This document shows positions 4,371 through 53,303 of a DNA stretch of 55,031 nucleotides, one piece after another. The notes beneath the pieces were generated by a model, which saw only the letters and a list, made by a program, of their open reading frames with translations, ran no database searches and was not told the DNA's origin. Every line of letters starts with the position of its first letter. Positions within the stretch are counted from its first letter, which is position 1. The translations under genes were made by a program, and so were the position numbers. The DNA is from Bacteroidaceae bacterium (GTDB taxonomy: Bacteria > Bacteroidota > Bacteroidia > Bacteroidales > Bacteroidaceae), in NCBI GenBank assembly GCA_017616915.1, contig JAFZXF010000110.1, forward strand, positions 1-55,031, given 5' to 3'.

Positions 4371-4398
4371 CATTGAACATTGAACATTAAACATTGGA
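4371..4398. repeat. Period-7 tandem repeat, 4 units (CATTGAA CATTGAA CATTAAA CATTGGA)
   Basis: Read directly in the frr-rsgA spacer. The last unit contains the TTG start codon of rsgA (4394). Confidence 0.9.
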
Positions 4399-5326
4399 CG
4401 GTCTCGTCATAAAGAACACGGGCAGCTGGGTGGATGTGCGCACCGACGGCGGCGAAGTGGTGAGGTGCAAGGTGAAGGGCAACTTTCGCCTGAAGGGCAT
4501 CAGGAGCACCTCGCCGGTGGTGGTGGGCGACTACGTGACCTTTGAGCGGAACAGCGAGGGGACGGCGTTTATCAACGACATCTGCGACCGCCGCAACTAC
4601 ATCATCCGTAAGTCGATAAACCTCTCGAAACAGAGCCACATACTGGCTGCGAACGTGGACGTGTGCCTGCTGGTGGTGACGCTGCGCGAGCCGGTGACGT
4701 CGATAGTGTTCATCGACCGATTCCTCGCCACGGCCGAGGCCTACTCGATACCGGTAAGTATAATAATAAATAAGGTGGACCTGCTGAGCGCAGAGGAGAA
4801 GGAGGAGGCGGAACGGCTGGCAAAGCTATACAGCGACATTGGCTACCACACGCTGATAACGTCTGTGACGAAGCGCCTTGGACTGGAGTCGCTACCTGAC
4901 CTGCTCAAGGATAAGACGGCGCTGCTGGCCGGCAACTCGGGCGTAGGGAAGTCGGAACTGCTGAACTGGCTGGTGCCGGGTGCGGGAGCGAGGACGGCTC
5001 CCATCTCGGAGGCTCACCTGAGCGGTATGCACACGACGACTTTCTCGGAGATGTATGACCTGCCCTTCGGGGGGAGACTCATCGACATCCCGGGGGTAAA
5101 GGGCTTCGGCACGTTCAACTTTGAGCGCGAGGAAGTGAGCCACTACTTCCGCGAGATTTTCACGGTGGGCAGGGGCTGCCGCTTCAGCAACTGCATACAT
5201 GTCAACGAACCGGGCTGTGCAGTGCGCGAGGCTGTGGAACGGGGCGAGATAGCGGGGTCACGCTACAGTTCGTACCTCAACATGCTGGACGATCAGGACG
5301 AAAGTAAATACCGAGAAGGGTACTGA
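4394..5326 (+). CDS. rsgA: Ribosome small-subunit-dependent GTPase A
   Basis: 310 aa with an N-terminal OB-like segment (GLVIKNTGSWVDV). The circularly permuted GTPase has NKVDL followed by GNSGVGKSELLN. A C-terminal zinc-knuckle-like CRFSNCIHVNEPGC is also present. Confidence 0.9.
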   Translation: MDGLVIKNTGSWVDVRTDGGEVVRCKVKGNFRLKGIRSTSPVVVGDYVTFERNSEGTAFINDICDRRNYIIRKSINLSKQSHILAANVDVCLLVVTLREPVTSIVFIDRFLATAEAYSIPVSIIINKVDLLSAEEKEEAERLAKLYSDIGYHTLITSVTKRLGLESLPDLLKDKTALLAGNSGVGKSELLNWLVPGAGARTAPISEAHLSGMHTTTFSEMYDLPFGGRLIDIPGVKGFGTFNFEREEVSHYFREIFTVGRGCRFSNCIHVNEPGCAVREAVERGEIAGSRYSSYLNMLDDQDESKYREGY

Positions 5327-5351
5327 CGAAGTTAACGCGGCTTTGCCGCTC

Positions 5352-5405
5352 GAAGTTAACGAAGTTATAGAAGCTATAGAAGTAATAGAAGTAATAGAAG
5401 TAAAT
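5352..5405. repeat. 9-bp tandem repeat x6 (GAAGTTAAC GAAGTTATA GAAGCTATA GAAGTAATA GAAGTAATA GAAGTAAAT)
   Basis: Read directly in the rsgA-nfeD intergenic spacer. CGAAGTTAACG also occurs once more at 5327-5337. Confidence 0.9.
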
Positions 5406-5424
5406 CGTCAAATTGTAAATATCC

Positions 5425-5898
5425 ATGACTTTAACAATTCTGATAATAATCTTTGCACTGGCCCTGGTGCTGTGCGTAGTGGAGACATTTCTCATCCCGG
5501 GCTTCGGGGTGTGCGGTGTGCTGAGTGCGCTGTGTGCGCTGATCGGCGTTGGTGCCACGTTTGGAATGTACGGTCTGGCGGCGGGTGCCATCGCCACAGC
5601 GGTGGTGCTGCTTGTGGGCGGCCTGCTGCTATACTGGGTGATGCACTCCAAGCGCATTGAGCGGCTCTCGCTTCATGCCACTATCGATTCCTCGGTAGCC
5701 ACCGAGGCGCAGAGCACCGTCAAGGTAGGCGATAAGGGTACGGCTCTCACCCGCCTCGCCCTGGTGGGAATGGCCCGCCTCGGAGAGGTGGAAGTGGAGG
5801 TGCGCTCCGCCAGCGGCTTTATCGATGAAGGGACGCCGATCGTAGTGACGAAGATAAACAATAGCGAAATTTACGTTGGTTTGAACATTGACCACTAA
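5425..5898 (+). CDS. NfeD-family membrane protein (partner of SPFH/flotillin proteins)
   Basis: 157 aa with three N-terminal hydrophobic helices. The C-terminal OB-like segment is VKVGDKGTALTRLALVGMARLGEVEVEVRSASGFIDEGTPIVV. It lies immediately upstream of floA, the classical nfeD-SPFH operon arrangement. Confidence 0.8.
   Translation: MTLTILIIIFALALVLCVVETFLIPGFGVCGVLSALCALIGVGATFGMYGLAAGAIATAVVLLVGGLLLYWVMHSKRIERLSLHATIDSSVATEAQSTVKVGDKGTALTRLALVGMARLGEVEVEVRSASGFIDEGTPIVVTKINNSEIYVGLNIDH
5874..5894. repeat. Period-7 repeat, 3 units (CGTTGGT TTGAACA TTGACCA) forming the last codons of nfeD
   Basis: Read directly. It encodes the C-terminal VGLNIDH, just before the TAA stop. Confidence 0.7.
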
Positions 5899-5917
5899 AA
5901 AATAAAAATTAAATAAT

Positions 5918-6925: not shown

Positions 6926-6983
6926 GCGGCCTAAGGAAAATGTAAAAATTGAAAAACGGAAAACTGAAATTCTTCCATTCTAA

Positions 6984-8102: not shown

Positions 8103-8106
8103 AATA

Positions 8107-8757: not shown

Positions 8758-8792
8758 GAGAGGAGGAAAAACACCACTTCAGGCAAAAAAAT

Positions 8793-8820
8793 CTCCATTC
8801 CCAACTCGCAATTCTCATTT
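8793..8820. repeat. Period-7 repeat, 4 units (CTCCATT CCCAACT CGCAATT CTCATTT)
   Basis: Read directly in the spacer upstream of rpsP. It is related to the tract inside cdsA (49006-33). Confidence 0.6.
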
Positions 8821-8826
8821 TTTTAC

Positions 8827-9519: not shown

Positions 9520-9537
9520 AGCCTGCACCATTTCACA

Positions 9538-17168: not shown

Positions 17169-19727
17169 ATGAAAAAAACGCTGACATTTTTCTTCGCATT
17201 GCTGCTTGCCGCCCCGATGATGCAAGCTGCACAAAAGGTAAATAAGAAGGCGCAATTAAGCGCAGCTCGTCAGGTGATTGACCGTTTCCTGCAGCAATCT
17301 TCAACAGCCAATGGTCAACGGTCAACGGTCAACGTCCAGATGTCAATGGACAAGGTGCAGGGCTGCGACCAATACTGCGTGGGTGTGGATCGCAAAGGCA
17401 CGCTACAGATTGACGCATCCAGTCCGGTAGCAGCGTGCAGGGCTTTCTATGAATACCTCCGCCTGCATGGCTACGGCATCAATTCATGGACCGGCAACCG
17501 CTTGCAGATACCTGCCACCTTTGAGCCGGAGGCCGACCGCCATGTGGTGTCGCCCTACAAACACCATAATTATTATAATGTGGTAACCTACGGCTACACC
17601 CTCCCCTATTGGAGCTGGCCGCAGTGGGAAAAGGAGCTCGATTGGATGGCCCTGCACGGCGTGGATATGCCGCTCGCCCTCGTAGCTAACGAGGCTATCA
17701 GTGCCCGGGTGTGGAAGAAACTCGGCCTCACCGATGAGGAGATACAGAATTATTTCGTTGGCCCCGCCCACTTGCCATGGATGCGTATGGGCAACATCAC
17801 CAAGATTGACTCGCCCATGCCCTTGAGCTGGCACAAAGACCAGATAGCCCTGCAACACAAGATACTGCAGCGTATGCGCGAACTGGGCATGAAGCCCATC
17901 TGCCCGGGCTTTGCAGGTTTCCTACCGCCGGAGATTAAGCGCATATATCCCGAGGCCAACCTGGTGCAGACCGACTGGGACGCTTTCCACGGTTGGATGC
18001 TGATGGCTGACGACCCCCTCTTCCCCAAAATCGGCAAGATGTTTATCGAGGAATGGGAAAAGGAATTCGGCAAGTGCGAGTTCTACATCGCCGACTCGTT
18101 TAATGAGATGTCCATCCCCTTCCCGCCCAAGGGCACCCAGGAGCGCTACGACAAGCTCGCCCATTACGGACGCACAGTCTTTGAGGGCATCCACGCAGCC
18201 AACCCCGATGCAGTATGGGTGATGCAGGGCTGGATGCTCGGCTCCACTCGCGGCATCTGGGATTATGAAACCCTCTCCGCGCTGTTGCGCGATGTGCCCG
18301 ACGACAAGATGCTCATCCTCGACATGGCCGCCGACTATAACTACATCTTCTGGCACAACGGCGCCAACTGGGAGTTCTACAAAGGCTTCGACGGCAAGCA
18401 GTGGATATTCTCCACCATCCCCAATATGGGCGGCAAAACTCCGCTCACCGGCATACTGGAGTTCTACGCCAATGGTGCACGCATCGACGCACTCAACTCG
18501 GCTTACAGAGACAACCTCGTGGGCTACGGCACCGAGCCTGAGGGCACCGAGAACAATGAAGTGGTCTATGAACTTATCAGCGATGCCGGCTGGACTGCCG
18601 ACAGCATCAACCTCAAGGACTGGCTGCAGAACTACACCCTCTGCCGCTACGGCAAGACCTGCGACCGCCTCAACGACTACTGGCAGGAGATTACCCAGTC
18701 GGCCTACGGCGAGTTCATCGACTGGCCCCACTACCTCTGGCAGCTCTGTCCGGGCGTCTATGAACGCGGCACCGCTCCCATTGACTCGCTCTTCCTCCAT
18801 GCCCTTGAGCAGTTTGCCGACGCGGCACCCCAGATGAAGGACAGCCCGCTCTATGCCACCGACCTCACCGAGATGGTGGCTCACTATGCCTCTGCCAAGA
18901 TGGAGATACTCATGCAGTCGGTCAAGAACTGCGTGATGTGGGATGACATGGGCAAGACCGACTCGCTCATTGCAGTCCTCAACGATATCGCCATCCGCAC
19001 CGACCAGGTGCTCAGCACCCACCCAATCCTGGATATGCAGCGCTGGATTGACTTCGCCAAGGCCCATGCCACCAATGCCGAAGAGTCCGCCTACTACGAG
19101 CGCAACGCCAAGCGTATCGTCACCGTTTGGGGACCGCCCGTCAACGACTACTCCGCCCGCATCTGGAGCGGACTGATTCGCGACTTCTACCTACCGCGCC
19201 TCAACAACTACCTGCAAAGCCTCAAGAGCGGAGACACCTTCGACGTCGGCAAGTGGGAGGTCAACTGGGTGGAGAACAGCAAGGGGCTCAGCCCCGTCAG
19301 CAAGCCCGCCGACAAGGTGCAGGCAGCCCTCGACCTCATGGCCATCGCCAAGACCGTGCCCTACAAAGCCTTTACCGCCGCCAACGCCAAAACGTTCGAC
19401 CACTGGACGCCCGACATGATGAGCCTCGACTGGACCACAGTGGAGTGGCCCGTTCCCGCCGCCGAGCTGGAAGGACTCAAAGGGTTTAGCTTCCACTGGA
19501 CTCACGGCCCCGAGAAACTGGAGATCAGTAAGGTGGAGCTCCTGCAGGACGGCAAGGTCGTGGCTGTCAACGAACACCAGGGTGAGACCGGCCTCATGAA
19601 CATTCACAACGACTATCCGCTCACGAAAGGTTCAGTGCTCAATCCTCAGAAGGATGCCGTGCTCCGTGCCACCGTTCGCACCACCGGCCACTGTGTTTCC
19701 TACGGCGACGTGATAATAGTAAGATAA
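17169..19727 (+). CDS. Alpha-N-acetylglucosaminidase (GH89, NAGLU-like) with extra C-terminal domain
   Basis: 852 aa with a signal peptide. It has NAGLU-type N-, TIM-barrel and C-terminal regions, for example YYNVVTYGYTLPYWSWPQWEKELDWMALHGVDMPLA and FIEEWEKEFG..EFYIADSFNEM. Confidence 0.85.
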   Translation: MKKTLTFFFALLLAAPMMQAAQKVNKKAQLSAARQVIDRFLQQSSTANGQRSTVNVQMSMDKVQGCDQYCVGVDRKGTLQIDASSPVAACRAFYEYLRLHGYGINSWTGNRLQIPATFEPEADRHVVSPYKHHNYYNVVTYGYTLPYWSWPQWEKELDWMALHGVDMPLALVANEAISARVWKKLGLTDEEIQNYFVGPAHLPWMRMGNITKIDSPMPLSWHKDQIALQHKILQRMRELGMKPICPGFAGFLPPEIKRIYPEANLVQTDWDAFHGWMLMADDPLFPKIGKMFIEEWEKEFGKCEFYIADSFNEMSIPFPPKGTQERYDKLAHYGRTVFEGIHAANPDAVWVMQGWMLGSTRGIWDYETLSALLRDVPDDKMLILDMAADYNYIFWHNGANWEFYKGFDGKQWIFSTIPNMGGKTPLTGILEFYANGARIDALNSAYRDNLVGYGTEPEGTENNEVVYELISDAGWTADSINLKDWLQNYTLCRYGKTCDRLNDYWQEITQSAYGEFIDWPHYLWQLCPGVYERGTAPIDSLFLHALEQFADAAPQMKDSPLYATDLTEMVAHYASAKMEILMQSVKNCVMWDDMGKTDSLIAVLNDIAIRTDQVLSTHPILDMQRWIDFAKAHATNAEESAYYERNAKRIVTVWGPPVNDYSARIWSGLIRDFYLPRLNNYLQSLKSGDTFDVGKWEVNWVENSKGLSPVSKPADKVQAALDLMAIAKTVPYKAFTAANAKTFDHWTPDMMSLDWTTVEWPVPAAELEGLKGFSFHWTHGPEKLEISKVELLQDGKVVAVNEHQGETGLMNIHNDYPLTKGSVLNPQKDAVLRATVRTTGHCVSYGDVIIVR
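17307..17348. repeat. Period-7 repeat, 6 units (GCCAATG GTCAACG x3 TCCAGAT GTCAATG) in frame in the GH89 gene
   Basis: Read directly. It encodes ANGQRSTVNVQMSM just after the signal peptide. Confidence 0.9.
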
Positions 19728-19755
19728 CCATTTCTACACACCTACACACACTTCA

Positions 19756-19783
19756 CCCCCGAGAGTATTGCAACTTTCGGGGG
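19756..19783 (+). terminator. Hairpin downstream of the GH89 gene
   Basis: CCCCCGAGAG pairs with CTTTCGGGGG (10-bp stem, 1 mismatch, 8-nt loop), 29 nt after the stop. The T tract is weak. Confidence 0.5.
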
Positions 19784-19810
19784 TTAATGCGTTTATCAAT
19801 CATCCAATCA

Positions 19811-19906
19811 TACCTCGTATCGATTGTGAATTCATACCTCGTATAAGGTATGAGCTTTTACCTCGTACAAGCTACCACCTTTTACCTCATACAAGTTGAG
19901 ACCCTT
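19811..19906. repeat. Phased array: TACCTC(G/A)TA(T/C) core repeated 4 times at exactly 24-bp spacing
   Basis: The cores start at 19811, 19835, 19859 and 19883. The 14-bp intervening segments differ from one another. Confidence 0.85.
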
Positions 19907-19954
19907 TCCGGAGGGTGAAATTTTAATCGACCATTATGAAAAAGACCAAAAATT

Positions 19955-20086
19955 AATCGGTTGCGACCAACTTACGAATCGGTAACAACCAACTGGGCAA
20001 TCGGTACGTACCAATATGAGAATCGGTACGTACCAACTGGACAATTGGTACGTACCGACATAATTACCGAATAGTTACCGAATTAT
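19955..20086. repeat. 22-bp tandem array (about 6 units) with AATCGGT(ACGTACC) cores; three units carry the perfect palindrome GGTACGTACC
   Basis: Units start at 19955, 19977, 19999, 20021, 20043 and 20065. The last unit overlaps the stop codon (20075-77) of the CotH-like gene. Confidence 0.85.
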
Positions 20087-23000
20087 TACCTTCTCCTTGT
20101 TGATGATATAAACGCCAGGAGGCAGGGTGATGGTCTCGCGGCCACCCTTGAGGCTGTAGAGTCGATAAACTCTGCCGTCGGCACCATAGACGGGAACTAC
20201 GGCAGCCTCGCTGCTGCTCAGCGTTACACTGTTGCCCTGCTGCCCAACGATGGACACGGCACTGTTGATGCCCGTAGGCTCCTCGAGGCAGAATTCTACC
20301 GTGCGGCTGCGACTACGCTCGTCCTCACCGAGGGCGGTAGAGAAGAGAACGTTGCTGAGAGAGGTGCTAAGCAATTGAGAATTATTTTTTCCTAACTCAA
20401 GGGTCAGCTCGCTCTTGCCGCGAGGCAACTTATGCTTGCCGCTAGCATAGATTGAAACTCTGTAGCATTGAGCATTGTCAAGCTCGGTAATGGAGACGTC
20501 GAAGTCGGGAAGGGAGCGGCTCAGGTCAAGATTGTCGAGCGTCATGCCATCGGGGATACGCAGGTCGAACTGCAGGCCGCTGTAATCGCCGTCATCCACG
20601 GCAATAACGAGCGGGATGGCCACACCCTCGTCGGTGTAGGCCACACAGCCCGAAGAAATGGCTGCATCGGCCTCAGGCAAGCCGTAGTAGCGACCGCTGA
20701 AGACGATTGGTGGTGTGGTGGTAGTGATGAGGTTGCGCACATTAATCACATCGGCCACGGTGATTATACCATTCTTGTCGGTGTCGGCCTGATAGAACTC
20801 AAAGTCCTCGTTGGGCAGGTTGAGCATATAGTTGAGCACGCACACCACATCGGAGGTAGTGACGCTACCGTCACCGTTGACATCGCCTATCAGCGGCCTG
20901 CCGCCATTGGGCTCAAGATATCCCTTGGAGGCATAGCCGAGGGTGTTGCTCATATAATTGAAGATGAAGTTTGCACGGTCTTTGAGCCACGTCTTGGCGC
21001 TGCGGGTGATGCTGGCATAAGTCTGAGCATTGCCACGACCCCAGCGCGAATTATCGTGAGAAAAGGAGGGGGCTGCAAACTGATAATAGTCGTCGCAGAA
21101 ATCTACAAGCTCGTCAAGGCTGCCGTCGTTGATGAAGTCGTACCAGAGGTTGTAGTATTTCTTGTCGAGGGCGGTAATGTTATAGCGCATGTCCTTCGAC
21201 CAAGCAAAACCTACCTCGGAGCCTGTACGCGACCAGAAATCGAGCGTAGCATGGGTGGTGAAATAGTCGCGGTTGGAGGAGAAACCGTAAGCCCAGTCAA
21301 AGTCCCACACCGGACCAAACACGTAAGGCGAACTGCTGTCCTTGATGTTGGCGTTATATACGAAGGTGCTCTTGGGGTGCATCAGCTCCACATTAGCGGT
21401 ATAGTCGGTGACGAACAGGAAACGAGCCAGATAGTCAAGGTCATAGTAAAACTCCAGGTACTCATCCTTGTTCTTCAGGGCCTCGGTGGAGCGATTGAAG
21501 CTCTCCTGAATCATGCTCTGGGTCAGACTGGTGGTGCCCTCGCTGAAGTCAGGCTCCTTGATATTCACCGGCAGGTTGTAGCTCTGGTCGCGGAACTTAT
21601 AGGTCTCGTCATAGTAGCTGTCGAGCTCCAGCAACACCGCATTGGTCTCATCGTCAAGGTCCACACTGTTGTTGGAGAGGCCTATCTTCTCCGTGAGATT
21701 GTAGGAACCGCGGTATTCGCCGTTGACATACAGCTCCACGGGTATCTCGTGATTGAAGCCCGCCGTCTCCACCAGTTGCGCCATCTTCATGGCTACGGCA
21801 TTACTGGTCATTGAATGGCTCTGGGCATTGGCAATGAGATTCCAGTGCTTGCCCTTCTTGAGACCGAGCACCTTGGTGGCGGTTTCAAACTTAAAATGGT
21901 AAGGGGCCTTGCCGCTGGATGTCCACGAACTGTTGCCGCGACCCTTAATCTGCATGTCTGTTTCTGGCAGGTCGGGGAACACTCCCGCACCGTCGATGCG
22001 TATCTTGCCGTCCCAATAGTAATGCTTCGAGGTGATACTGGTGCCGTCGTTTGTAGTGACATATACTGACGGAACCTTGTATGAGGAATTGGAATGGTCG
22101 GTGGCAAAATCCACACGCACCGTATAATCCTGTCCGTAAGGCCTTACAAGGTATTCACCGTTGAACCGGCGACGCAGGATGGTCTGACCACAACGGGCCA
22201 CGGTATAGACCACATCCTTATCAAAGCGAACACGGGTCACCTTGCTATGCTGCAAAGAATCGCCAATCCAGGCCTGCACATCCTCGTCGAGCTTAAACGA
22301 AGGACGCAGCGTCTTGCCGATGCCCACCACCTGCAGAGTGATGAGGGTATCTTCCTCAAACACACCGATGGCATCCTCGATGATATGGTGGTTGAACTTG
22401 TTGTTGAACTTAAAGCTATTGAACTCCGGCAGCGGTGGCGATACCTCGCTAAGGGAGTCCACCTCGTAGTCCTTGAATGTATAAGTGGGGCCACTGTCCT
22501 TGGTGGTGATTGATAATTGACCATCGAACATTGACCATGGGCCATTGAGCGTTGACCATTCACCATTGGGCATTAAGCATTGAACTTTATCTATATAAGC
22601 ACGGGGGAAAGCCTCTACCCTACCGTCGGCACGATAGACAAAGAGAATCTTGCCAGTGACCGGCTCCAGCTGACTGCCGGTGGTGTCAGGGTCAATAGGG
22701 TCAGGGTCGCTACTGGTGTGAAACTGCTTGCCCTTTTCGTCGTAGAGGTTGAATGTTTCGTTCAGTCCGTAAGGGATGCCGCTCTTGCTGTAAGCTCCAA
22801 GGGCATAAGTGCCGTTACGAACGTTAAAGAAATAACTCCCGTTGGCAACACTCTGGAAATAGAACAGCTCGGAGCCGTCGTCTGCAGTGGTATTGCAGAT
22901 ATACCACAGCGATGCCTCAGCCTCTATGCTGGAAGACAAATGCACATAGCGCAGTATCTCCGGCGAGTTGGTGTACTGGTCATCAAGGGTGATATACTGG

Positions 23001-23284: not shown

Positions 23285-23287
23285 TCC

Positions 23288-24340
23288 TTACTCTCCTTGG
23301 ATGATGAAGTTGTATATGGTAATAACATCGACAGAGTTGACATCGCCATCGCCATTGGTATCAGCGTATTCGCGGATGATTCCGCTCTCTTCGCCAATAA
23401 TGATGTAGTTATACACGCTCACCACATCTACCGAGTTGACGCTACCGTCACCATTGACGTCGCACACATAGCGATACTTGGCGGTTAAGGTCACATCACG
23501 AGCCGGCATCGACCATTGATCGTTGACCATTGACCATTGACCATCGACCAGCTCGCCCCAGCCCACAAACTTCTGACCGTCGAGGTCGCCAGGAACGAAT
23601 GCAGGCAGAGGATTGTTATATGCAACCTGCTCGGCATGTACCACCATATCGTCCACAACGAACTGGAGCGTATAGGAGTTGACACACCATCCAGCATAAA
23701 GGTCGAGGTTATGAGAAGGCATAACCGAGGGAACATCGCCCCACCCGCAGAAGGAATAGCCTTCACGCTCGGCAGGCTCATCAATCATAGGAATGGGTAT
23801 TCCGGCCATGAGGTTGGTAGTGTAATATACCGTATCTGCATTCCAATAGGTCAGCTTATACGATGAACCCTGAGGCTCCAACGTAAATGAGGCTACAGCA
23901 TTGTTCAGCACTGTCTCGGCACCAGCATTGGTGGTAAGACGCACATTCTTTGCCACCACGTCATATGTGCCTTCCGGAAATGTGGAAGTAGCATTAAACT
24001 TGATAGAGAACAGGTTACCACTGTTGCCCGTGATATTATTCTTCTTTGCCGAGGCGTAACCCACGATACGCGGCAGGCCATTGGTAGCGGTGCCGACCTT
24101 TATAGTCAGATTGCGAGTACGCAAAGAAGAGGTAAGCGACGCAGCATCCAGCGTCACCCCACTGGGCAATACGAAATCCATCTGGAAGCCACTATAAATG
24201 GTGGAAGGGTTATCCAGCTCTACCGTCAGAGTCCACTGACGACCGTCACCTTTCACAATGCCCATCTTTATGACATCGTCAGCCGCCCATACCACGAAGG
24301 GCATGATTGCCAGCACAATTAATGAGAATATGCGTTTCAT
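23288..24340 (-). CDS. Secreted cohesin-like / Listeria-Bacteroides-repeat / dockerin protein
   Basis: 350 aa with a signal peptide (VVWA/ADD). The evidence by region:
- Cohesin-like: WTLTVELDNPSTIYSGFQMDFVLPSGVTLD...GNLFSIKFNATSTFPEGTYDV.
- Two Flg_new-type repeats (EGYSFCGWGD, GQKFVGWGE).
- C-terminal dockerin: DVNGDGSVNSVD...DTNGDGDVNSVD.
- Its start overlaps the upstream gene's stop as ATGA. Confidence 0.7.
   Translation of the reverse strand: MKRIFSLIVLAIMPFVVWAADDVIKMGIVKGDGRQWTLTVELDNPSTIYSGFQMDFVLPSGVTLDAASLTSSLRTRNLTIKVGTATNGLPRIVGYASAKKNNITGNSGNLFSIKFNATSTFPEGTYDVVAKNVRLTTNAGAETVLNNAVASFTLEPQGSSYKLTYWNADTVYYTTNLMAGIPIPMIDEPAEREGYSFCGWGDVPSVMPSHNLDLYAGWCVNSYTLQFVVDDMVVHAEQVAYNNPLPAFVPGDLDGQKFVGWGELVDGQWSMVNDQWSMPARDVTLTAKYRYVCDVNGDGSVNSVDVVSVYNYIIIGEESGIIREYADTNGDGDVNSVDVITIYNFIIQGE
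23508..23549. repeat. Period-7 repeat, 6 units (CATCGAC CATTGAT CGTTGAC CATTGAC CATTGAC CATCGAC)
   Basis: Read directly. It is in frame and encodes VDGQWSMVNDQWSM. Confidence 0.9.
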
Positions 24341-28140: not shown

Positions 28141-28158
28141 TGAAATTAGGGTTGTCGG

Positions 28159-28166
28159 CAAAATTA
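28159..28166 (-). promoter_or_regulatory. Candidate -7 box TAATTTTG directly upstream of protein A
   Basis: The forward sequence CAAAATTA is the reverse complement of TAnnTTTG. It lies 19 nt upstream of the ATG at 28140. Confidence 0.4.
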
Positions 28167-28257
28167 CGTATATTTTCTGATATACAATGTAAAATAGGGT
28201 AAAAAAGAGCATTTTACCTAATGTAATGCACCGAAACGAGTAAGATTTGAATACAAT

Positions 28258-28290
28258 CGGTGCCGTGCAGCAACATTCTGCACGGCACCG
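28258..28290 (-). terminator. Strong hairpin between the lipoprotein genes and protein A (terminator, attenuator or processing site)
   Basis: Perfect 13-bp stem: CGGTGCCGTGCAG pairs with CTGCACGGCACCG, with a 7-nt loop. GCACCGAAAC direct repeats flank it at 28228-37 and 28285-94. Confidence 0.55.
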
Positions 28291-28322
28291 AAACACAGTG
28301 TGTAGTTATTTAGCGTCTACGA

Positions 28323-28904: not shown

Positions 28905-28910
28905 AGTAAT

Positions 28911-29621: not shown

Positions 29622-29648
29622 AATTTATTCAATATGAAATTAAAGTTT

Positions 29649-31163: not shown

Positions 31164-31183
31164 AATATTATCCTCCTTTTTAT

Positions 31184-34100: not shown

Positions 34101-34384
34101 TGAGCAACGCGCAGGAAAATCTGCATTGAGGGCTTGGCAGCAATCTGCTGAGTCTCCTAGCCCACTGCGCTAACAAACAGGTGAGTCCTGCCCTTGGGCA
34201 CGTTCAAAGAGAACTTTCCGTCTGCCTTTGTCTCGGCAATTACGTTGGTACCTGTAACTACCACGATGACATTCTGCAGAGGCACACTGTCTTCCGACAT
34301 CACGATGCCGTTGACCTTCATCTGTGCCAACGCTCCTTGCCCTATTGCGAACAGGAGCGCCAAGAGAAATAGGATTTTTTTCAT
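31184..34384 (-). pseudogene. SusC/RagA family TonB-dependent receptor interrupted by one in-frame TAG (codon 76)
   Basis: Track ORFs 34157..34384 (signal peptide plus CarboxypepD_reg-like domain, ending ...HLFVSAVG*) and 31184..34126 (plug plus barrel) are in the same frame. The junction reads GTG GGC TAG GAG ACT CAG. The TAG sits where the conserved Tyr of the (S/I)xGY-x-TQ motif is expected. Confidence 0.8.
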
Positions 34385-48508: not shown

Positions 48509-49355
48509 CGTACTGATTCGCACACTATCTGGCATCGCCTTTGTGGCAGTGATAGTAGGATGTCTGCTTTGGGGCATGTCAACCTACTGCGTGCTTTTCG
48601 CCGCCATCACCGCCCTGCTAATCAATGAGTTCAACGAACTGTTACTTGAGCACAATTTGGCGCAGGTCAATAACACCGTCAGCATCATAAGCGGTGTCTA
48701 TCTGTTTATTGCCTTCTTCCTATATTGTAGCGGCAGCGCAGGCTCTGCTGTGTTTGCCCCATATTTACTGTCCTTGATTTTCGTGCTGGTTAGCGGTCTT
48801 TACTTCAAGCAAGAAAATCCCGTCAGCTCTTGGGCTTATACCTTTGCCGGCCAACTCTACATCGCCCTGCCAATGGCACTACTTAATGTGTTGGCTTTCA
48901 ATCAAATCTACTCCCCCACCCTGCCTTTGGCCGTTTTCGTTTTCCTTTGGCTTAACGACACGGGCGCCTACTGTTTCGGTTGCACCTTGGGCAAGAGAAT
49001 CAAATTCCAATTCTCCATTCTCAATTTCCATTTTACCCAGAAACTCTTCCCCTCGCTCTCTCCTAAGAAAACGTGGATTGGCAGTCTGGGCGGTGGCATC
49101 GTAGTATTGCTGGGCGCATGGGCTTTCCACCTACTCAGCGGCGAAGGCAGCCTACTTTTTTGGTTGGGTCTCGGCGCCACCGTTTGCGTGTTCGGTACAT
49201 GGGGAGATCTGGTGGAGAGTCAACTCAAGCGCTATCTCGGCATCAAAGACAGTGGTCACTTTCTGCCCGGCCACGGTGGAGCGCTCGACCGTTTCGACAG
49301 CGCCCTACTAGCCATTCCTGCCGCCACTACCTATGTTCTTTTCTGGGCAGCATAG
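48501..49355 (+). CDS. cdsA: Phosphatidate cytidylyltransferase
   Basis: 284 aa polytopic membrane protein with the CdsA signature SQLKRYLGIKDSGHFLPGHGGALDRFDS. It overlaps ftsH by 8 nt. Confidence 0.85.
   Translation: MPNVLIRTLSGIAFVAVIVGCLLWGMSTYCVLFAAITALLINEFNELLLEHNLAQVNNTVSIISGVYLFIAFFLYCSGSAGSAVFAPYLLSLIFVLVSGLYFKQENPVSSWAYTFAGQLYIALPMALLNVLAFNQIYSPTLPLAVFVFLWLNDTGAYCFGCTLGKRIKFQFSILNFHFTQKLFPSLSPKKTWIGSLGGGIVVLLGAWAFHLLSGEGSLLFWLGLGATVCVFGTWGDLVESQLKRYLGIKDSGHFLPGHGGALDRFDSALLAIPAATTYVLFWAA
49006..49033. repeat. Period-7 repeat, 4 units (TCCAATT CTCCATT CTCAATT TCCATTT), in frame in cdsA
   Basis: Read directly. It encodes FQFSILNFHF, inserted just before the conserved SPKKTW segment. 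Confidence 0.75.
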
Positions 49356-49361
49356 ATTATT

Positions 49362-52085
49362 ATGCGACTTCTTCTTTCTGTATTGCTGAGTATGTGCGTC
49401 TTAACTTCTGGGGCGCAGGTCATAGCTGAGCAATATCGTGAGTTGCTAGTACAATCCAGAGACATATATCAGCAAGCCATCGGGAAGGTATCGGAAATGA
49501 TTCCTATCACCGGTGACCAGCTAAGCAGCAACGCCAGTGATTTTCAAGAAGGGAAACATATCGAACATATGGTTGACGGCAACGCCACTACTTTTTGGCA
49601 CAGCGACTGGCACAATCAAATTCAAGACACACACTACATACAGGTTGACTTCAACCAGCCTGTCGGTGGCAACATCGGACTCTATGTGTTGCGGCGGCAG
49701 ACCAGTGCCAACCATGTTACCCTGATGGGAGTTCTGGGGAGTAATGACAACACACAATGGGATGAATTGGGCACAATAGCGCTCGGCAATGCAAGCTCCG
49801 GTCAGGAATATACCTCAGCCCCCGTTTCTTTAGGCGATAAAACCTATCGGTCGTTGCGTTTCACCATACTCGCTAACACCTCAGGAAATAAATTCGGTCA
49901 TTTTGCAGAGTTCCGACCAATCCATGTTAATATTTACGGTCCTTCTTACCTGATTGATTTGGGTCCTATCGCCACCGCTTTGCACAAGCAGATAATGGCG
50001 GGCGAAGTTCTCAACGATGATGAAATCACAGATGATGTTCTGCAAGAGCTGCAGGAGGCATACAATACCTTTTGTTCTGAGTTGGATGGTCTGCGCCAAG
50101 GTAATATTCCCTCCTACATTAAGCAGCATACCAACTTGCCGAGTCTCTATATCAACACTTACGACGGCTCCGACATAACCAGCAAACAAGTCTATCAATA
50201 TGCCAAGATGTGGCGCGTACGCGATGGACTCATCGAGATATTCGATTCTTTGCAGATTCGCGGCCGAGGCAATAGCACCTGGCGCTTGCCAAAGAAGCCC
50301 TATCGCATCAAGTTCAAGCACAAATCCAAATTCCTCGGCAACAATCATGCAAACGCCCGCAACTGGACACTGATGGCCAACTGCTGCGACAAATCTCTTA
50401 TCCGCAATGCCGTTGCCAGTTATATAGGCAAGAATTTGGGACAATCCTTTGTGCCCGCCGCCATGTTTGTGGATATCAGTTTGAACTCCAACTACGTTGG
50501 CAATTATCAGGTGAGCGACCAGATTGACATACACAAATACCGCATTGACATTGTGGAGCAAGACACCATACCCACCGACAATTCCGATATCTCCGGCGGC
50601 TATTTCATGGAGATAGGTGCGCCTGCCGCATGGGAAAGCTGTTCGTTCCGTACCGACAAGAGCGTGCCCATTTCCGTCCGTTCGCCTGATAGTGATGTCA
50701 TACAAGACACGCAGGTCGACTATATCCGCCAGTTTATGAACAACGTGGAGACCCATATCTTCTCCGACGATTTTAAAGACCCCGACAAAGGCTACCGCTC
50801 TCTCTTTGACAGCCTATCACTCGCCACATGGTTTCTCACTGTGGAATACAGCGGCAATTGCGATGGTTTCTACAGTATCTATTGCTACAAGCAACGAGCC
50901 GACGACCACCTCTACATGGGGCCGATATGGGATTACGACATTGCCTTCAACAACTGTCATCGCATTGGCGAAGTCACGAATCGTCTTATGCTCGATGCAG
51001 GATACGGCGGTAACAACGGCAAGAATTGGTTTGTCCGCATGTACGATGATCCGTGGTTTCGCAACCTCGTTGGCAGGCGATGGCATCAAGCGGTCTGTAA
51101 GGAAAGCCTAGTTGAAAAGACTCTCGCCTTTGTTGACAGCCTGACAGCAGAAATTGACCAAAGTCAGCAGCTGAATTATCAGGTTTGGCCAATCAATCAG
51201 CGCACTCACGACGAGCTGCAGCTATTCAGCACCTATCAGGAAGGTATCGATTATCTGAAAGACTTCCTCGTTGATCACGCCACCTACCTGTCGTCAGTTT
51301 TCCCAAATCCCGACAATCTTGAGCCACCCATGCCGCCACCAACTAATCCGATGGACATCGACGAGGATTACTACTATTACATCTACAATGTAGGGGTGGA
51401 TCATCCAATCGACATTTGCGACGGAACCGACCTCATCGGTACCTGGAGCCGCGACAATGACAGATATCTGACACAACAATGGGATATTCGTCCCGTTACT
51501 GCCGATTATTATCGCCTCGTAAGCAGAGAAAGCAAACTCGCCATTACCGATATGGCCGCCTACACTGACGGGCAGTATACCACTGGTGCCCAGCTGCAGC
51601 TCATGCCTGTTGATGACAATGACAACCGCCAGCTATGGCGATTTGTGAAAGCCGGTGACTATTGGGCCATCGAAAACAAGGCAACCTCTTTAGCCTGGAA
51701 TAACTCACATGGCGCAAGCACCAACGGAAACGCCGTAATCAGCTGGGCCAATAATGCCGACAATGCTACTAAACTCACACGCCAGTGGTATGTGGAGTTG
51801 GCTGACGAAAGTGTATCGGCAGTTATGGCGATGCACTCAAACGAAGATATCGATTACCGCATTACACTCGACCCTCACACCCGGCAAATTCATTTCCGCT
51901 TACCCGATGGTCAGAATTTGATGTTCAATGCCCAATGCTCAATGTCCCTTTATAACCTTAGCGGACACATGCTTGCATCCGGCTGTATAAATCAGCCGAT
52001 TGATGCGTCAGTGCTGCCCTCGGGAGTTTACATCCTCCGCTGGACAATAAACGGGCATAGCCGCTCAATAAAGATTAAATTATAG
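49362..52085 (+). CDS. Secreted F5/8-type-C (discoidin) / CotH-kinase-like / ricin-B-lectin protein with T9SS C-terminal domain
   Basis: 907 aa with a signal peptide. The evidence by region:
- Discoidin-like: MVDGNATTFWHSDWH.
- CotH-like: IRGRGNSTWRLPKKPYRIKFK..NWTLMANCCDKSLIRN..YMGPIWDYDIAFNN.
- Ricin-like: QQWDIRPV, RQLWRFV, TRQWYVE.
- T9SS CTD: LYNLSGHMLASG..LPSGVYILRWTINGHSRSIKIKL. Confidence 0.75.
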   Translation: MRLLLSVLLSMCVLTSGAQVIAEQYRELLVQSRDIYQQAIGKVSEMIPITGDQLSSNASDFQEGKHIEHMVDGNATTFWHSDWHNQIQDTHYIQVDFNQPVGGNIGLYVLRRQTSANHVTLMGVLGSNDNTQWDELGTIALGNASSGQEYTSAPVSLGDKTYRSLRFTILANTSGNKFGHFAEFRPIHVNIYGPSYLIDLGPIATALHKQIMAGEVLNDDEITDDVLQELQEAYNTFCSELDGLRQGNIPSYIKQHTNLPSLYINTYDGSDITSKQVYQYAKMWRVRDGLIEIFDSLQIRGRGNSTWRLPKKPYRIKFKHKSKFLGNNHANARNWTLMANCCDKSLIRNAVASYIGKNLGQSFVPAAMFVDISLNSNYVGNYQVSDQIDIHKYRIDIVEQDTIPTDNSDISGGYFMEIGAPAAWESCSFRTDKSVPISVRSPDSDVIQDTQVDYIRQFMNNVETHIFSDDFKDPDKGYRSLFDSLSLATWFLTVEYSGNCDGFYSIYCYKQRADDHLYMGPIWDYDIAFNNCHRIGEVTNRLMLDAGYGGNNGKNWFVRMYDDPWFRNLVGRRWHQAVCKESLVEKTLAFVDSLTAEIDQSQQLNYQVWPINQRTHDELQLFSTYQEGIDYLKDFLVDHATYLSSVFPNPDNLEPPMPPPTNPMDIDEDYYYYIYNVGVDHPIDICDGTDLIGTWSRDNDRYLTQQWDIRPVTADYYRLVSRESKLAITDMAAYTDGQYTTGAQLQLMPVDDNDNRQLWRFVKAGDYWAIENKATSLAWNNSHGASTNGNAVISWANNADNATKLTRQWYVELADESVSAVMAMHSNEDIDYRITLDPHTRQIHFRLPDGQNLMFNAQCSMSLYNLSGHMLASGCINQPIDASVLPSGVYILRWTINGHSRSIKIKL
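51903..51944. repeat. Period-7 repeat, 6 units (..TTTGATG TTCAATG CCCAATG CTCAATG), in frame in the third CotH-like gene
   Basis: Read directly. It encodes DGQNLMFNAQCSMS at the start of the T9SS CTD. Confidence 0.8.
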
Positions 52086-52098
52086 TGGAAAGTTTTCC

Positions 52099-53271
52099 TT
52101 AAGGCACATTCAGTTTCTCCACTATAATCTTGGCAGCACGCTGGGGCGCTCCGGGGGCGCCAAGATATTGAGCCATCTCTTCGTAACCCTCAAGCTGGGC
52201 ATCACGGTCAGCACCTCCTCTAACAATACCAGCCAAGCGGGCGGATAGGTTGGGCACCGTCATATCGCTTCCCACCAATTCGGGTACTAACTCGCGGTCA
52301 ACTATAAGGTTAACAAGCGAGATATACTTTACTTTCAGGAGCACCTTTCGCAAAAGAGCAAAGAACCATCCTGCCTTGATGTAATAACATACTACCTGTG
52401 GTACATGGAAAAGAGCCGTCTCAAGCGTAGCAGTACCGCTTGTCACAAGGGCAGCCTCGCTATTTGCCAGCAGTTCGAAAGTCTTGCCATTGACCAACAT
52501 TATGTCGGAATCTCCATCTAAGTCCGAATTGAGAATTGAAGAATGACCAATAACCTTGCTCGTTATTTGTTTGTAGAAACTTTCTTCGAAATTGGGCGCT
52601 CCGGCAATAACAATCTTGTAGCCTTTTTCTACATACGGAGCGGCAGCCTGAAGCATACGACTCAGATTATCGGTTATCTCTTTGCTGCGAGAGCCTGGCA
52701 ACAGGGCGATGATGGGAGATTGGAACTTGGACAATAACCTATTGTCCGTTGCCTGTTGTCTCCACTCAGCTATCTCATCAACAGTAGGATTGCCAACATA
52801 GTGTATGGGATAATCGTGGCGGTTGTAGAAATCCACCTCAAAGGGCAGTATCGAGAACATCTCGTCCACATCGCTCTTGATGGCTTTGATGCGATGTTCC
52901 TTCCACGCCCATATCTTAGGAGAGATATAGTAATATACGGGTATGCTGGTATGCTGGCGCAGATACTTGGCTATTTTCAGGTTGAAGCCCGGATAGTCAA
53001 CGAGGATTACCACATCGGGCTGCCATTCCACGATTGCTTCGCGGCATTGTTGCATAGCTTTGAGTATCGTGCGCAGATGAATCAGCACGGTGAGAAAACC
53101 CATGTACGCTATATCCTTGTAGTGCCGCAATAAAGTACCGCCCACAGCCTTCATCTTGTCGCCACCATAGTAACGAAAATCGGCATTAGGATCTTCCTGC
53201 ATCAGCGCCCTCATCAGATTCGACGCATGCAAATCGCCACTAGCTTCACCAACTATAAGAAAGTATTTCAT
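52099..53271 (-). CDS. lpxB: Lipid-A-disaccharide synthase
   Basis: 390 aa with the canonical LpxB N-terminus MKYFLIVGEASGDLHASNLMRAL and the GT19 layout. Confidence 0.92.
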   Translation of the reverse strand: MKYFLIVGEASGDLHASNLMRALMQEDPNADFRYYGGDKMKAVGGTLLRHYKDIAYMGFLTVLIHLRTILKAMQQCREAIVEWQPDVVILVDYPGFNLKIAKYLRQHTSIPVYYYISPKIWAWKEHRIKAIKSDVDEMFSILPFEVDFYNRHDYPIHYVGNPTVDEIAEWRQQATDNRLLSKFQSPIIALLPGSRSKEITDNLSRMLQAAAPYVEKGYKIVIAGAPNFEESFYKQITSKVIGHSSILNSDLDGDSDIMLVNGKTFELLANSEAALVTSGTATLETALFHVPQVVCYYIKAGWFFALLRKVLLKVKYISLVNLIVDRELVPELVGSDMTVPNLSARLAGIVRGGADRDAQLEGYEEMAQYLGAPGAPQRAAKIIVEKLNVP

Positions 53272-53282
53272 TGATTAAATCC

Positions 53283-53303
53283 TTCAATAGTCAACGGTCA
53301 ACG
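53283..53303. repeat. Period-7 repeat, 3 units (TTCAATA GTCAACG GTCAACG) in the surE-lpxB spacer
   Basis: Read directly. Confidence 0.8.

What the first reader, a model, noticed from the sequence alone, without database searches (positions are those of the whole stretch)
4371..53303. Dispersed period-7 repeat (GTCAATG / CATTGAC)n at 9 or more sites, always in the stop-free orientation when inside genes
Short tandem tracts of a degenerate heptamer occur throughout the window. The sites are 4371-98, 5874-94, 17307-48, 22508-84, 23508-49, 24635-69, 24749-83, 51903-44 and 53283-303. Related CTCCATT/CTCAATT tracts lie at 8793-820 and 49006-33.

Six tracts sit internally in ORFs: GH89, CotH-like A (two tracts), CotH-like B, the cohesin/dockerin protein and the third CotH-like protein. 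In all six, the sense strand carries the GTCAATG orientation.
- That orientation cycles through V-N-G-Q-W-S-M with no stop in any frame.
- The encoded peptides are NGQRSTVNVQMSM, NGEWSTLNGPWSMFDGQ, DGQWSMVNDQWSM, NGQRSIDNAQ, NGQRSMVNGQ and DGQNLMFNAQCSMS.
- The opposite orientation (CATTGAC)n has TGA in all three frames.
- Relative to the flanking genes, that stop-containing orientation is what the intergenic copies show (frr-rsgA spacer, surE-lpxB spacer).

This pattern fits a repeat that seeds or expands genome-wide and is then filtered by selection. It preferentially survives in surface/secreted proteins. A 7-nt unit is not a multiple of 3, so gaining or losing a single unit would shift the frame. 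That creates potential for slipped-strand phase variation of T9SS cargo genes.
Basis: seen in the sequence. Interest (0 to 1): 0.7.

Follow-up and report, generated by a model that had tools for sequence, protein, structure and literature searches.

The report
Dispersed seven-base repeat writing protein loop insertions
A rumen Prevotella-like bacterium carries short tandem runs of one seven-base unit (GTCAATG) scattered through its genome; they gain and lose whole units between strains, and inside genes they survive only as in-frame blocks of three units that add seven amino acids to protein loops.

Summary
A tract finder gives 9 GTCAATG-type tracts in 55 kb against 0.22 in shuffles, and 5 of 6 tracts from an unbiased period-7 scan share the unit nTCAAyG.

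It is a lineage-specific dispersed heptanucleotide microsatellite, the kind known as STRR in cyanobacteria, TAACTGA repeats in Beggiatoaceae and GGGAATC repeats in Xanthomonas.

**Supported**
- Close strains differ by whole units. The frr-rsgA spacer has 3, 4 or 7 units, the nfeD end has 2 or about 5, and one CotH gene differs from two otherwise identical assemblies only by 21 nt.
- Genic tracts are insertions into loops, shown for GH89 and for two 21-nt indels between the CotH paralogues.

**Not supported**
- Phase variation: five genic tracts have the same length in up to 13 strains, and only 21-nt in-frame changes were seen.
- A preference for secreted or T9SS proteins: CdsA in the window carries a decayed tract, and in related rumen genomes so do PurM, PurD, MetH, UvrD and RibD.
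- The "stop-free orientation" rule, which is forced for any intact ORF with three or more units.

**Unusual**
About two thirds of tracts are intragenic in rumen Prevotellaceae, against about 5% in cyanobacteria. How the unit stays sequence-specific is unresolved.

The parts
4371..4398 (-). Tract of 4 units (TTCAATG type). It fills the whole 25-nt spacer between the frr stop (4366-68) and the rsgA start; the TTG start at 4394 lies in the last unit. The mRNA-sense strand reads CATTGAA.
   Evidence: Related strains have 3 (L123), 4 (L122) and 7 (L121) units.
5874..5894 (-). Two units at the 3' end of the nfeD-like gene (5425-5898, encoding ...LNIDH*), 19 nt upstream of floA.
   Evidence: Strain L121 has about 5 units here (+22 nt), and there a TGA from the tract becomes the nfeD stop.
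17307..17348 (+). Tract (GTCAACG type) inside GH89/NAGLU, encoding ANGQRSTVNVQMSM (aa 46-60).
   Evidence: It is an insertion of about 8 aa relative to all 23 aligned homologues. In the AlphaFold model it forms a coil with a pLDDT dip between helix 2-42 and strand 54-57. Its length is identical in L124 and L125.
22508..22584 (-). Longest tract, about 10.7 degenerate units, inside CotH/dockerin protein B (aa ~233-259, NGEWSTLNGPWSMFDGQ).
   Evidence: Its length is invariant in 13 strains, with 3 substitutions in the more distant ones.
23507..23550 (-). Tract of about 6 units inside Flg_new/dockerin protein C (VDGQWSMVNDQWSM, aa 264-277).
   Evidence: It is identical in 13 strains.
24635..24669 (-). 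Site 2 tract in CotH/dockerin protein D (YNGQRSIDNAQ). It is 21 nt longer than the same site in paralogue B.
   Evidence: Strains L131, L133 and L136 carry a same-length allele with 7 differences in 28 nt that lies closer to the consensus. Homologues carry other heptapeptide modules at this loop.
24749..24783 (-). Site 1 tract in protein D (DNGQRSMVNGQ), including 3 perfect units. It is 21 nt longer than paralogue B.
20466..20479 (-). Short state of site 1 in protein B: two cores 7 nt apart (CAATGCTCAATG), 21 nt shorter than D.
20373..20387 (-). Short state of site 2 in protein B (AATAATTCTCAATTG). It is polymorphic: other strains have 21 nt more.
   Evidence: L124 and L125 are 100.00% identical over the rest of the 3.2-kb gene and have perfect (AATTCTC)x4. 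L131 and L133-L136 have AATGCTC(AATGGTC)x3. B is 1069 aa in the window and 1076 aa elsewhere.
51903..51944 (+). Degenerate tract (core 51921-44) in CotH/RicinB protein E (DGQNLMFNAQCSMS), at the start of its T9SS type A sorting domain.
   Evidence: Only identical strains were available, so there is no polymorphism information.
53283..53303 (+). Three units (GTCAACG type) in the 33-nt surE-lpxB spacer. It starts 2 nt after the surE stop and ends 12 nt before the lpxB ATG. The mRNA-sense strand reads GTTGACC.
49006..49033 (+). Decayed CTCAATT/CTCCATT-type tract inside cdsA (KFQFSILNFHF).
   Evidence: The window has 20 residues between the GK and SPKKT motifs where T. maritima CdsA (4q2e) has 6, read from the sequences printed.
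8789..8817 (+). Weak CTCCATT/CTCAATT-like period-7 stretch in an intergenic region.
   Evidence: The score is marginal, so this may be a decayed tract or chance.

Best explanation
The tracts are a lineage-specific family of dispersed tandem heptanucleotide repeats. This is a long simple-sequence repeat of the STRR type, with unit nTCAAyG and consensus GTCAATG.

**Anatomy**
Each array is bounded by the conserved core: [CAATGnn]n CAATG.

**Dynamics**
- Shown: arrays gain and lose whole units between strains.
- Shown: new units are copies of the neighbouring unit. Examples are the TTCAATG run before rsgA, the GTCAACG run in GH89, and perfect (AATTCTC)x4 in protein B of two strains.
- Inferred: growth is local, most likely by slipped-strand misalignment at sites that already hold two cores 7 nt apart.

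**Selection filter**
- Inside genes only the GTCAATG-sense orientation can persist, because the other orientation puts TGA in all three frames.
- Only changes of three units (21 nt) keep the frame. Each surviving event therefore adds or removes seven residues of the cyclic peptide V-N-G-Q-W-S-M in a tolerant loop.
- Between genes any unit number is allowed, and the TGA-containing orientation predominates. Those tracts usually sit directly after a stop codon and/or just before the next start.

**Unresolved**
I could not determine why one unit dominates a whole clade. My inference is a sequence-dependent bias in the expansion step, or seeding of new sites from existing arrays.

The tracts act as a source of loop-length variation, not as on/off switches.
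For: - **Non-random, single unit family:**
- **Whole-unit polymorphism between strains at 97.8-99.9% flanking identity:** frr-rsgA has 3, 4 or 7 units; the nfeD end has 2 or about 5 units.
- **In-frame 21-nt events in genes:**
  - Two exact 21-nt indels separate paralogues B and D.
  - A 21-nt indel is the only difference between the window's B gene and L124/L125.
  - Three different alleles exist at that one site.
  - At D site 2 a same-length allele has 25% divergence in the tract against 0-6% in the flanks.
- **Local amplification:** tract-specific unit variants are repeated in tandem.
- **Core-bounded arrays:** 32 of 40 genic tracts start at (TC)AATGG, p=3e-6, and the modal length is 31-34 nt, which equals a 12-nt two-core site plus 21. 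The short states in B are exactly such sites.
- **Insertions into loops:** GH89 against 23 homologues and its AlphaFold model; PurM against 80 orthologues; variable modules at the same loops in homologues of D.
- **The same phenomenon across rumen Prevotellaceae:** 39 of 59 tracts lie in ORFs (36 in the stop-free sense orientation), including cytoplasmic enzymes.
- **The kind is known:** heptanucleotide repeats are reported as the most abundant long SSR class, with polymerase slippage proposed (PMC4679880, summarising Mrazek 2007). Strain-level length variation of intergenic heptamers is reported in Xanthomonas (PMC4692102).
Against: - Simple slippage cannot add three units to a 1.5-unit site in one step. 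Stepwise growth in essential genes such as PurM, MetH or CdsA would pass through frameshifted intermediates.
- Pure local slippage does not explain why more than 80% of period-7 arrays in the window share one core, or why the same unit recurs across many rumen Prevotellaceae species.
- In L131 and L133-L136 the three extra units at B site 2 are the genome-wide consensus AATGGTC. They are not copies of either flanking partial unit.
- Five of the six indel events seen are exactly three units. Two of these lie outside or at the very end of coding sequence, where the reading frame should not matter.
- The single-stranded arrays have no predicted structure that would promote slippage.
- The single recent genic indel rests on metagenome assemblies.
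Confidence: 0.6

Rival explanations
1. Templated spread, or a tiny mobile element. New tracts would be written by copying several consensus units from an existing array, by microhomology-mediated template switching at CAATG or by a dedicated sequence-specific enzyme. Insertion would then occur in blocks of about 21 nt or more rather than by local slippage.
For: - The same perfect consensus unit occurs at dozens of unrelated genes in many Prevotellaceae MAGs, often with 31-35 perfect bases.
- Boundaries are non-random and fall at the CAATG core.
- The consensus-type units at B site 2 in L131 and L133-L136 differ from both flanks.
- Three-unit steps occur even outside coding sequence.
- Tracts occur in inverted pairs flanking short spacers (L013, L053, L113, L033).
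- Viral contigs of about 50% GC carry similar 31-34 nt genic tracts.
- From my own recollection, not checked here: Elhai et al. 2008 described very small mobile repeats embedded in heptamer arrays in Nostoc.
Against: - Tract-specific variant units repeated in tandem, including perfect (AATTCTC)x4, show local duplication.
- Both short states seen still hold 1-1.5 units.
- I found no terminal structure, target-site duplication or associated gene.
- The perfect-consensus sample was selected by an exact 21-mer search, which biases it toward consensus units.
Confidence: 0.2
2. Functional cis-element. The arrays would be binding sites for an RNA- or DNA-binding protein, or unstructured spacers with stops in all frames, that tune translation at gene junctions. 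This was proposed for TAACTGA repeats. Genic copies would be by-products.
For: - Window intergenic copies sit 0-25 nt upstream of the rsgA, floA and lpxB starts, in the TGA-containing sense orientation.
- There is an orientation bias: 11 of 13 in Prevotellaceae plus the window, and 43 of 66 over all groups.
- The arrays are predicted to be unstructured.
- PMC4679880 describes the same placement for TAACTGA.
Against: - Unit number at the same junction varies between 3, 4 and 7 among near-identical strains.
- Most copies in this lineage are inside genes.
- Part of the orientation bias is classification. A stop-free tract at a gene end is counted as genic, and a stop-containing one as intergenic.
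- No candidate binding protein was identified.
Confidence: 0.1
3. Contingency loci. Single-unit slippage would shift the frame and switch T9SS cargo genes on and off.
For: - A 7-nt unit is not a multiple of 3.
- Single-unit changes do occur in an intergenic tract.
- The window's genic tracts lie in secreted multidomain proteins.
Against: - Five genic tracts show no length change in up to 13 strains, and D has no indels.
- The tracts are degenerate, with at most 3 perfect units, and lie mid-gene or near the 3' end.
- The only genic change seen is in-frame.
- The same tracts sit in housekeeping enzymes in relatives.
- The one disrupted gene nearby, a SusC-like transporter, is broken by a point nonsense mutation and not by a repeat.
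Confidence: 0.06
4. Protein-level repeat. The NGQWSMV-like peptides would be selected motifs, and the 7-nt periodicity would be a side effect.
For: Similar N-x-Q-x-S-x-x modules recur at the same loops in homologues.
Against: - Intergenic copies exist in both orientations.
- Every residue of the repeat uses one and the same codon. All three frames of one heptamer give the peptide.
- Hosts range from cytoplasmic enzymes to signal peptides.
Confidence: 0.03

Closest known systems
Cyanobacterial STRR (short tandemly repeated repetitive) heptanucleotides. Mazel et al. 1990 is cited as reference 39 in PMC4692102; the unit sequences CCCCAGT, TTGGTCA and CAACAGT are from my own knowledge.
   Same: - Tandem 7-nt units of a lineage-specific sequence, dispersed at many loci.
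- The exact (GTCAATG)x3 also occurs in Calothrix, Nostoc, Fischerella and Tolypothrix.
- The STRR2 array (GTCATTG)n differs from this unit by one base.
   Different: - In the cyanobacterial loci 38 of 40 tracts are intergenic. In rumen Prevotellaceae 39 of 59 are genic (Fisher p=3e-10).
- The host phylum differs.
- The arrays here are short, about 4-5 units.
TAACTGA direct repeats of Beggiatoaceae, cyanobacteria and a few Bacteroidetes (MacGregor 2015, PMC4679880)
   Same: - The heptamer contains TGA, so one orientation stops all three frames and the other is open.
- Intergenic copies lie just upstream of start codons in the stop-containing orientation.
- Occasional open-orientation copies occur inside ORFs.
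- Related heptamers differ by lineage.
   Different: - The unit is different.
- That family is overwhelmingly intergenic and was interpreted as a translational regulator.
- Strain-level unit gain and loss and in-frame 21-nt insertions were not described there.
GGGAATC / GGGGAYT heptamer repeats of Xanthomonas and Nostoc (Rehm 2015, PMC4692102)
   Same: - A dispersed heptamer family with conserved core positions and variable others.
- Length variation between closely related genomes at the same intergenic site.
- Some inverted pairs.
   Different: - Those repeats are G-rich, form quadruplexes and are intergenic.
- The arrays here have no predicted structure.
Phase-variable simple-sequence contingency loci (Haemophilus, Neisseria, Moraxella)
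   Same: Tandem short units that change copy number by slippage.
   Different: - Here no frame-shifting variants were seen in genes.
- The tracts are short and degenerate.
- One unit is dispersed through housekeeping genes as well.
Tandem repeats in Borg elements that create disordered protein regions (PMC9879509)
   Same: Rapidly evolving DNA tandem repeats inside ORFs add new peptide segments, and only frame-preserving lengths persist.
   Different: - Borg genic units are themselves multiples of 3 and differ from site to site.
- Here a single 7-nt unit is reused genome-wide and works in triplets.

Membership tests
Dispersed heptanucleotide long SSR (STRR-like) | Head-to-tail tandem copies of a 7-nt unit | tested here: met
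   TRF period-7 rows; lag-7 scan; sequences read directly.
Dispersed heptanucleotide long SSR (STRR-like) | The same unit at many separate loci of one genome, beyond chance | tested here: met
   9 tracts against 0.22 in shuffles. 5 of 6 unbiased period-7 tracts share the unit. Control units give 0.
Dispersed heptanucleotide long SSR (STRR-like) | Unit-number polymorphism between close relatives | tested here: met
   3, 4 or 7 units in the frr-rsgA spacer; 2 or about 5 at the nfeD end; 1 or 4 at B site 2.
Dispersed heptanucleotide long SSR (STRR-like) | Predominantly intergenic location, as described for STRR, TAACTGA and GGGAATC | tested here: not met
   6 of 9 window tracts and 39 of 59 tracts in rumen Prevotellaceae loci are inside ORFs. 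This is why I call it a variant rather than a plain member.
Phase-variable contingency locus | Frame-shifting (non-multiple-of-3) length variants of the genic tract among strains | tested here: not met
   Five genic tracts are invariant in length in 2-13 strains. D shows no indels. The only change is 21 nt.
Phase-variable contingency locus | A long, perfect tract in the 5' coding region or promoter | tested here: not met
   At most 3 perfect units. The positions are aa 46-60 of 852, 233 of 1069, 264 of 350, 1171 and 1209 of 1319, and 847 of 907.
Miniature mobile element (MITE / REPIN / small dispersed repeat) | Presence/absence polymorphism with an empty site that lacks the element | tested here: inconclusive
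   Both short states seen still hold 1-1.5 units. Homologues of GH89 and PurM that lack the tract are too distant for a DNA-level empty site.
Miniature mobile element (MITE / REPIN / small dispersed repeat) | Defined ends, target-site duplication or an associated transposase | tested here: not met
   The only regularity is the core at both ends. Inverted pairs exist but flank native sequence. No associated gene was seen in the window.
   E scores 23.3 bits against a cut-off of 23. B scores 16.6 bits, below the cut-off. D, GH89 and C have no hit.

The most novel reading that the evidence does not exclude
A sequence-specific process that writes blocks of about three units (21 nt) of one clade-specific heptamer at sites holding a CAATG core. 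The process could be a dedicated enzyme, or templated copying from existing arrays. It would act on any DNA replicating in these hosts, phages included. In effect this would be the smallest kind of self-propagating repeat and a built-in generator of 7-residue loop insertions, even in essential enzymes.
Probability: 0.15. Interest if true: 0.8.

Novelty: new variant of a known kind. Interest (0 to 1): 0.5.

Why it matters
Heptanucleotide repeats have been reported as the most over-represented long simple repeats in bacteria, but nobody knows why, and the described families are almost all intergenic.

This lineage offers something different:
- The same unit sits mostly inside genes.
- It changes between near-identical strains.
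- It leaves a readable record: in-frame 21-nt steps and core-bounded ends.

That makes the expansion mechanism testable with metagenomic read data and with simple reporters.

It also shows a route by which one DNA-level process inserts the same 7-residue peptide into loops of unrelated proteins, housekeeping enzymes included. This matters for protein evolution, for annotation (spurious small ORFs are called over long arrays) and for strain typing of rumen Prevotella.

Tried and rejected
- **BLAST of the window against the 120 loci that hold (GTCAATG)x3:** no match, so the window's genome was not among them.
- **Cross-phylum sharing as a sign of a special or transferred sequence:** rejected. 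Two arbitrary heptamers of the same composition form perfect 3-unit arrays in viral contigs at similar or higher frequency: 6 and 27 loci against 9.
- **Protein search with (NGQWSMV)x6:** it returned only short spurious ORFs laid over long arrays, and none of the large host proteins.
- **LpxB and SurE look-ups:** they found only strains identical to the window, so there is no polymorphism information for the E tract or the surE-lpxB spacer.
- **The split SusC-like gene as a possible repeat-driven frameshift:** it is a TAT-to-TAG point mutation.
- **The split D gene in L136:** the split coincides with a run of N, a scaffolding gap, at 26.8 kb in the alignment.
- **Rfam:** nothing at any tract, only two tRNAs.
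- **DNA folding of both strands of the array:** no structure.
- **Literature:** a search for the repeat sequence itself gave no relevant paper. The Mrazek 2007 paper could not be opened.
- **O-glycosylation sequon D-(S/T)-x:** considered from memory. The peptides do not contain it.
Full report

Yes. All nine listed sites carry period-7 tracts of the stated unit.
- The dimer GTCAATGGTCAATG with up to three mismatches occurs 38 times against 5.2 +/- 2.2 in dinucleotide shuffles.
- My ungapped tract finder gives nine tracts against 0.22 in shuffles.
- A scan that knows nothing about the unit (self-match at lag 7) gives six tracts against 0.3 expected. Five of the six belong to this family.
- Two control heptamers of the same composition give none.
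- The position-by-position unit is G/T/C - T - C - A - A - T/C - G. Position 5 is invariant and position 1 is the most variable.
- The CTCAATT/CTCCATT relatives are a weaker excess, 6 against 1.0.
- The quoted peptides and host genes are correct.
- The 5874-94 tract actually encodes the last residues of an NfeD-like gene.
- Pfam finds dockerin and a Listeria-Bacteroides repeat in protein C, but no cohesin.
- The rule that genic copies are always in the stop-free orientation carries no information. Three or more CATTGAC units put TGA in every frame, so an intact ORF cannot contain them.

**2. Whose genome is it?**

Proteins identical to its own occur on rumen metagenome contigs and on two MAGs, GCA_017551605.1 and GCA_017615695.1. 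One close homologue is labelled "Bacteroidaceae bacterium" by NCBI.

These look-ups gave a population of strains 94-100% identical to the window. They cover positions 0.8-7.4 kb and 13.3-39.6 kb, plus identical strains for 48.4 kb to the window's end.

**3. The tracts change between strains, by whole units.**
- The 25-nt spacer between the frr stop and the rsgA start consists entirely of the tract, and the rsgA TTG start lies in its last unit.
- That spacer has three units in L123, four in the window and L122, and seven in L121. The flanks are otherwise almost identical.
- At the end of nfeD the window has two units and L121 about five. In L121 a TGA from the tract serves as the nfeD stop.
- Inside genes the picture is different. 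Five genic tracts (GH89, B, C and both in D) have the same length in every strain available, up to 13. D has no indels at all.

**4. In genes the step is 21 nt.**
- Paralogues B and D differ in their C-terminal domain by two exact 21-nt gaps. Both lie at tract sites where B keeps only two cores seven bases apart, such as CAATGCTCAATG.
- At the second of these sites the window's B gene differs from L124 and L125 by 21 nt and nothing else over 3.2 kb.
  - Those strains have perfect (AATTCTC)x4.
  - Strains L131 and L133-L136 have AATGCTC(AATGGTC)x3 at the same place.
  - Hence B is 1069 aa in the window and 1076 aa elsewhere.
- At D site 2, two alleles of equal length differ at 7 of 28 tract bases while their flanks differ by 0-6%.
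- So the tract turns over faster than its surroundings while keeping the frame.
- Caveat: the recent B indel rests on metagenome assemblies and should be checked against reads.

**5. Genic tracts are insertions into loops.**
- The GH89 tract is about eight extra residues relative to all 23 homologues aligned.
- In an AlphaFold model (mean pLDDT 85) it forms the coil between helix 2-42 and strand 54-57. Confidence dips there.
- Homologues of the D C-terminal domain carry other heptapeptide modules at the same two loops: NGQWSMV, NGQLSIV, NSQISNF, NSQLSAA, NYQLSTI twice, and EELGVRS twice.
- The window's CdsA has 20 residues between its GK and SPKKT motifs where T. maritima CdsA has 6. The extra stretch is the decayed CTCAATT-type tract.

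**6. The wider picture.**
  - About 38 come from rumen Prevotellaceae/Bacteroidales MAGs.
  - The rest come from Chitinophagaceae and other Bacteroidota, heterocystous cyanobacteria, Chloroflexi, Acidobacteria and others.
- With crude ORF calls, 39 of 59 tracts in the Prevotellaceae loci lie in ORFs, 36 of them in the stop-free sense orientation. In cyanobacteria the figure is 2 of 40 (Fisher p=3e-10). Coding fractions are 0.88 and 0.71.
- The Prevotellaceae hosts include many cytoplasmic and membrane-embedded proteins: PurM, PurD, MetH, UvrD, RibD, HPPK, a GH94 phosphorylase, an agmatine-deiminase-type enzyme, radical-SAM proteins, an ECF sigma factor, transporters and ResB.
- They also include secreted proteins: a TonB-dependent receptor, GH43, and M16 and M23 peptidases.
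- The typical insert reads NGQWSMVNGQ or SMVNGQWSM.
- The idea that the repeat survives mainly in secreted or T9SS proteins therefore does not hold. Only E reaches the T9SS sorting-domain cut-off, and barely.
- In 680 kb around 80 PurM orthologues from gut and rumen Prevotella-like genomes there are 25 period-7 tracts.
  - Their units differ by lineage but often share a TCAA core: GTCAATT, TTCAATA, TCAACTA, CTCAACT, TTCAAAG, TTCAAAA.
  - One orthologue has a different heptamer insertion (NSQLSTV type) in the same PurM loop as L013.
- The cross-phylum occurrence of this exact unit is not special. Two arbitrary heptamers also form perfect three-unit arrays in viral contigs, at 6 and 27 loci against 9.

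**7. Anatomy that bears on mechanism.**
- Tracts begin at (TC)AATGG in 32 of 40 genic cases (p=3e-6) and end at TCAAT(G). The modal length is 31-34 nt.
- This is what a 12-nt site with two cores becomes after gaining 21 nt. The short states in B are exactly such sites.
- Variant units are repeated in tandem within a tract, which shows that growth copies the neighbouring unit.
- Against simple slippage:
  - A 1.5-unit site cannot gain three units in one misalignment.
  - Five of the six indel events seen are three units, including two where the reading frame should not matter.
  - The consensus-type units at B site 2 in L131 and L133-L136 match neither flank.
- Some tracts occur as inverted pairs around native sequence.
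- Neither strand of the array is predicted to fold, and no Rfam family overlaps any tract.

**8. Intergenic orientation.**
- Between co-directional genes the TGA-containing orientation is on the sense strand in 3 of 3 window cases and 8 of 10 Prevotellaceae cases, together p=0.02. Over all groups it is 43 of 66.
- Part of this is bookkeeping. A stop-free tract at a gene end is read as coding, while a stop-containing one ends the gene and counts as intergenic (one search shows such a case).

**9. What it is, and how new.**

The best-supported reading is a lineage-specific dispersed heptanucleotide microsatellite of the kind long known from other bacteria:
- STRR in cyanobacteria.
- TAACTGA repeats (PMC4679880).
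- GGGAATC repeats (PMC4692102).

It grows and shrinks by whole units and is filtered by selection to the open orientation and to three-unit steps inside genes.

It departs from the described families in two ways. It is mostly intragenic, and it inserts one 7-residue module into loops of unrelated proteins. No held paper contains the repeat sequence. I therefore rate it a new variant of a known kind.

Frameshift phase variation is not supported. What makes one unit dominate a whole clade, and whether there is a 21-nt quantum, remain open.

Noticed in passing
window 5352-5401 (rsgA-nfeD spacer); L121:4540-4800: A 9-nt tandem repeat (GAAGTTATA/ATAGAAGTA, about 5.6 copies) also varies by one unit between strains: L123 has one more. 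In L121 the whole spacer is replaced by about 160 nt of unrelated sequence. That sequence has terminator-like hairpins and its own (CATTGAG)x6 tract.
   Followed up: partly
window ~34127-34129 (minus strand), inside the SusC-like gene 31184-34384: The window strain, with L125 and L130, has TAG where five other strains have TAT. This splits the TonB-dependent transporter of this polysaccharide-utilisation locus into a 75-aa piece and a 980-aa piece. It is either an inactivating nonsense mutation or a site of read-through.
   Followed up: partly
window 19728-20090 (between convergent GH89 and CotH protein B): The spacer is packed with other tandem repeats: period 24 at 19835-95, periods 22 and 44 at 19966-20063, and period 11 at 20053-90. 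In strains L131, L133 and L136 the spacer holds an extra 146-aa ORF with no Pfam hit.
   Followed up: no
window 20075-34384: A SusC/SusD-type locus is followed by a BT_2262-like surface protein, a lipid-binding protein, two large CotH-kinase-domain proteins with type I dockerins, and a Flg_new/dockerin protein. Dockerin-bearing CotH proteins in a Bacteroidota utilisation locus look unusual.
   Followed up: no
L013:4640-4820, L053:7230-7420, L113:660-850, L033:1480-1690: Heptamer tracts occur as inverted pairs 30-55 nt apart.
- In L013 (PurM) and L053 (ECF sigma) the antisense arm stays open only because one TGA per frame is mutated.
- In L113 the two arms bracket a start codon plus a lipoprotein signal peptide.
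- In an acidobacterial locus (L033) two different heptamers form nested inverted arrays.
   Followed up: partly
L227, L228, L233-L235 (IMG/VR viral contigs, about 50% GC): Viral contigs carry 31-34 nt GTCAATG tracts inside long open frames, the same form as in rumen Prevotellaceae genes. If these are phages of those hosts, the process acts on phage DNA too. The hosts were not determined.
   Followed up: partly
L018:5212-5291, L054:102-231: Long arrays show higher-order periodicity. L054 has 21-nt super-units (AATGTTC AATGTTC AACGGTC). L018 has 31-nt super-units: (AATGGTC)x3, then AATG, then an A run.
   Followed up: no
proteins P0132-P0251: Public gene callers annotate many 30-75 aa 'hypothetical proteins' that are merely translations of long (GTCAATG)n arrays. 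They occur in cyanobacteria, Niastella, Ignavibacteria, Glaciimonas and others, and two are even labelled 'plasmid maintenance system killer protein'.
   Followed up: no
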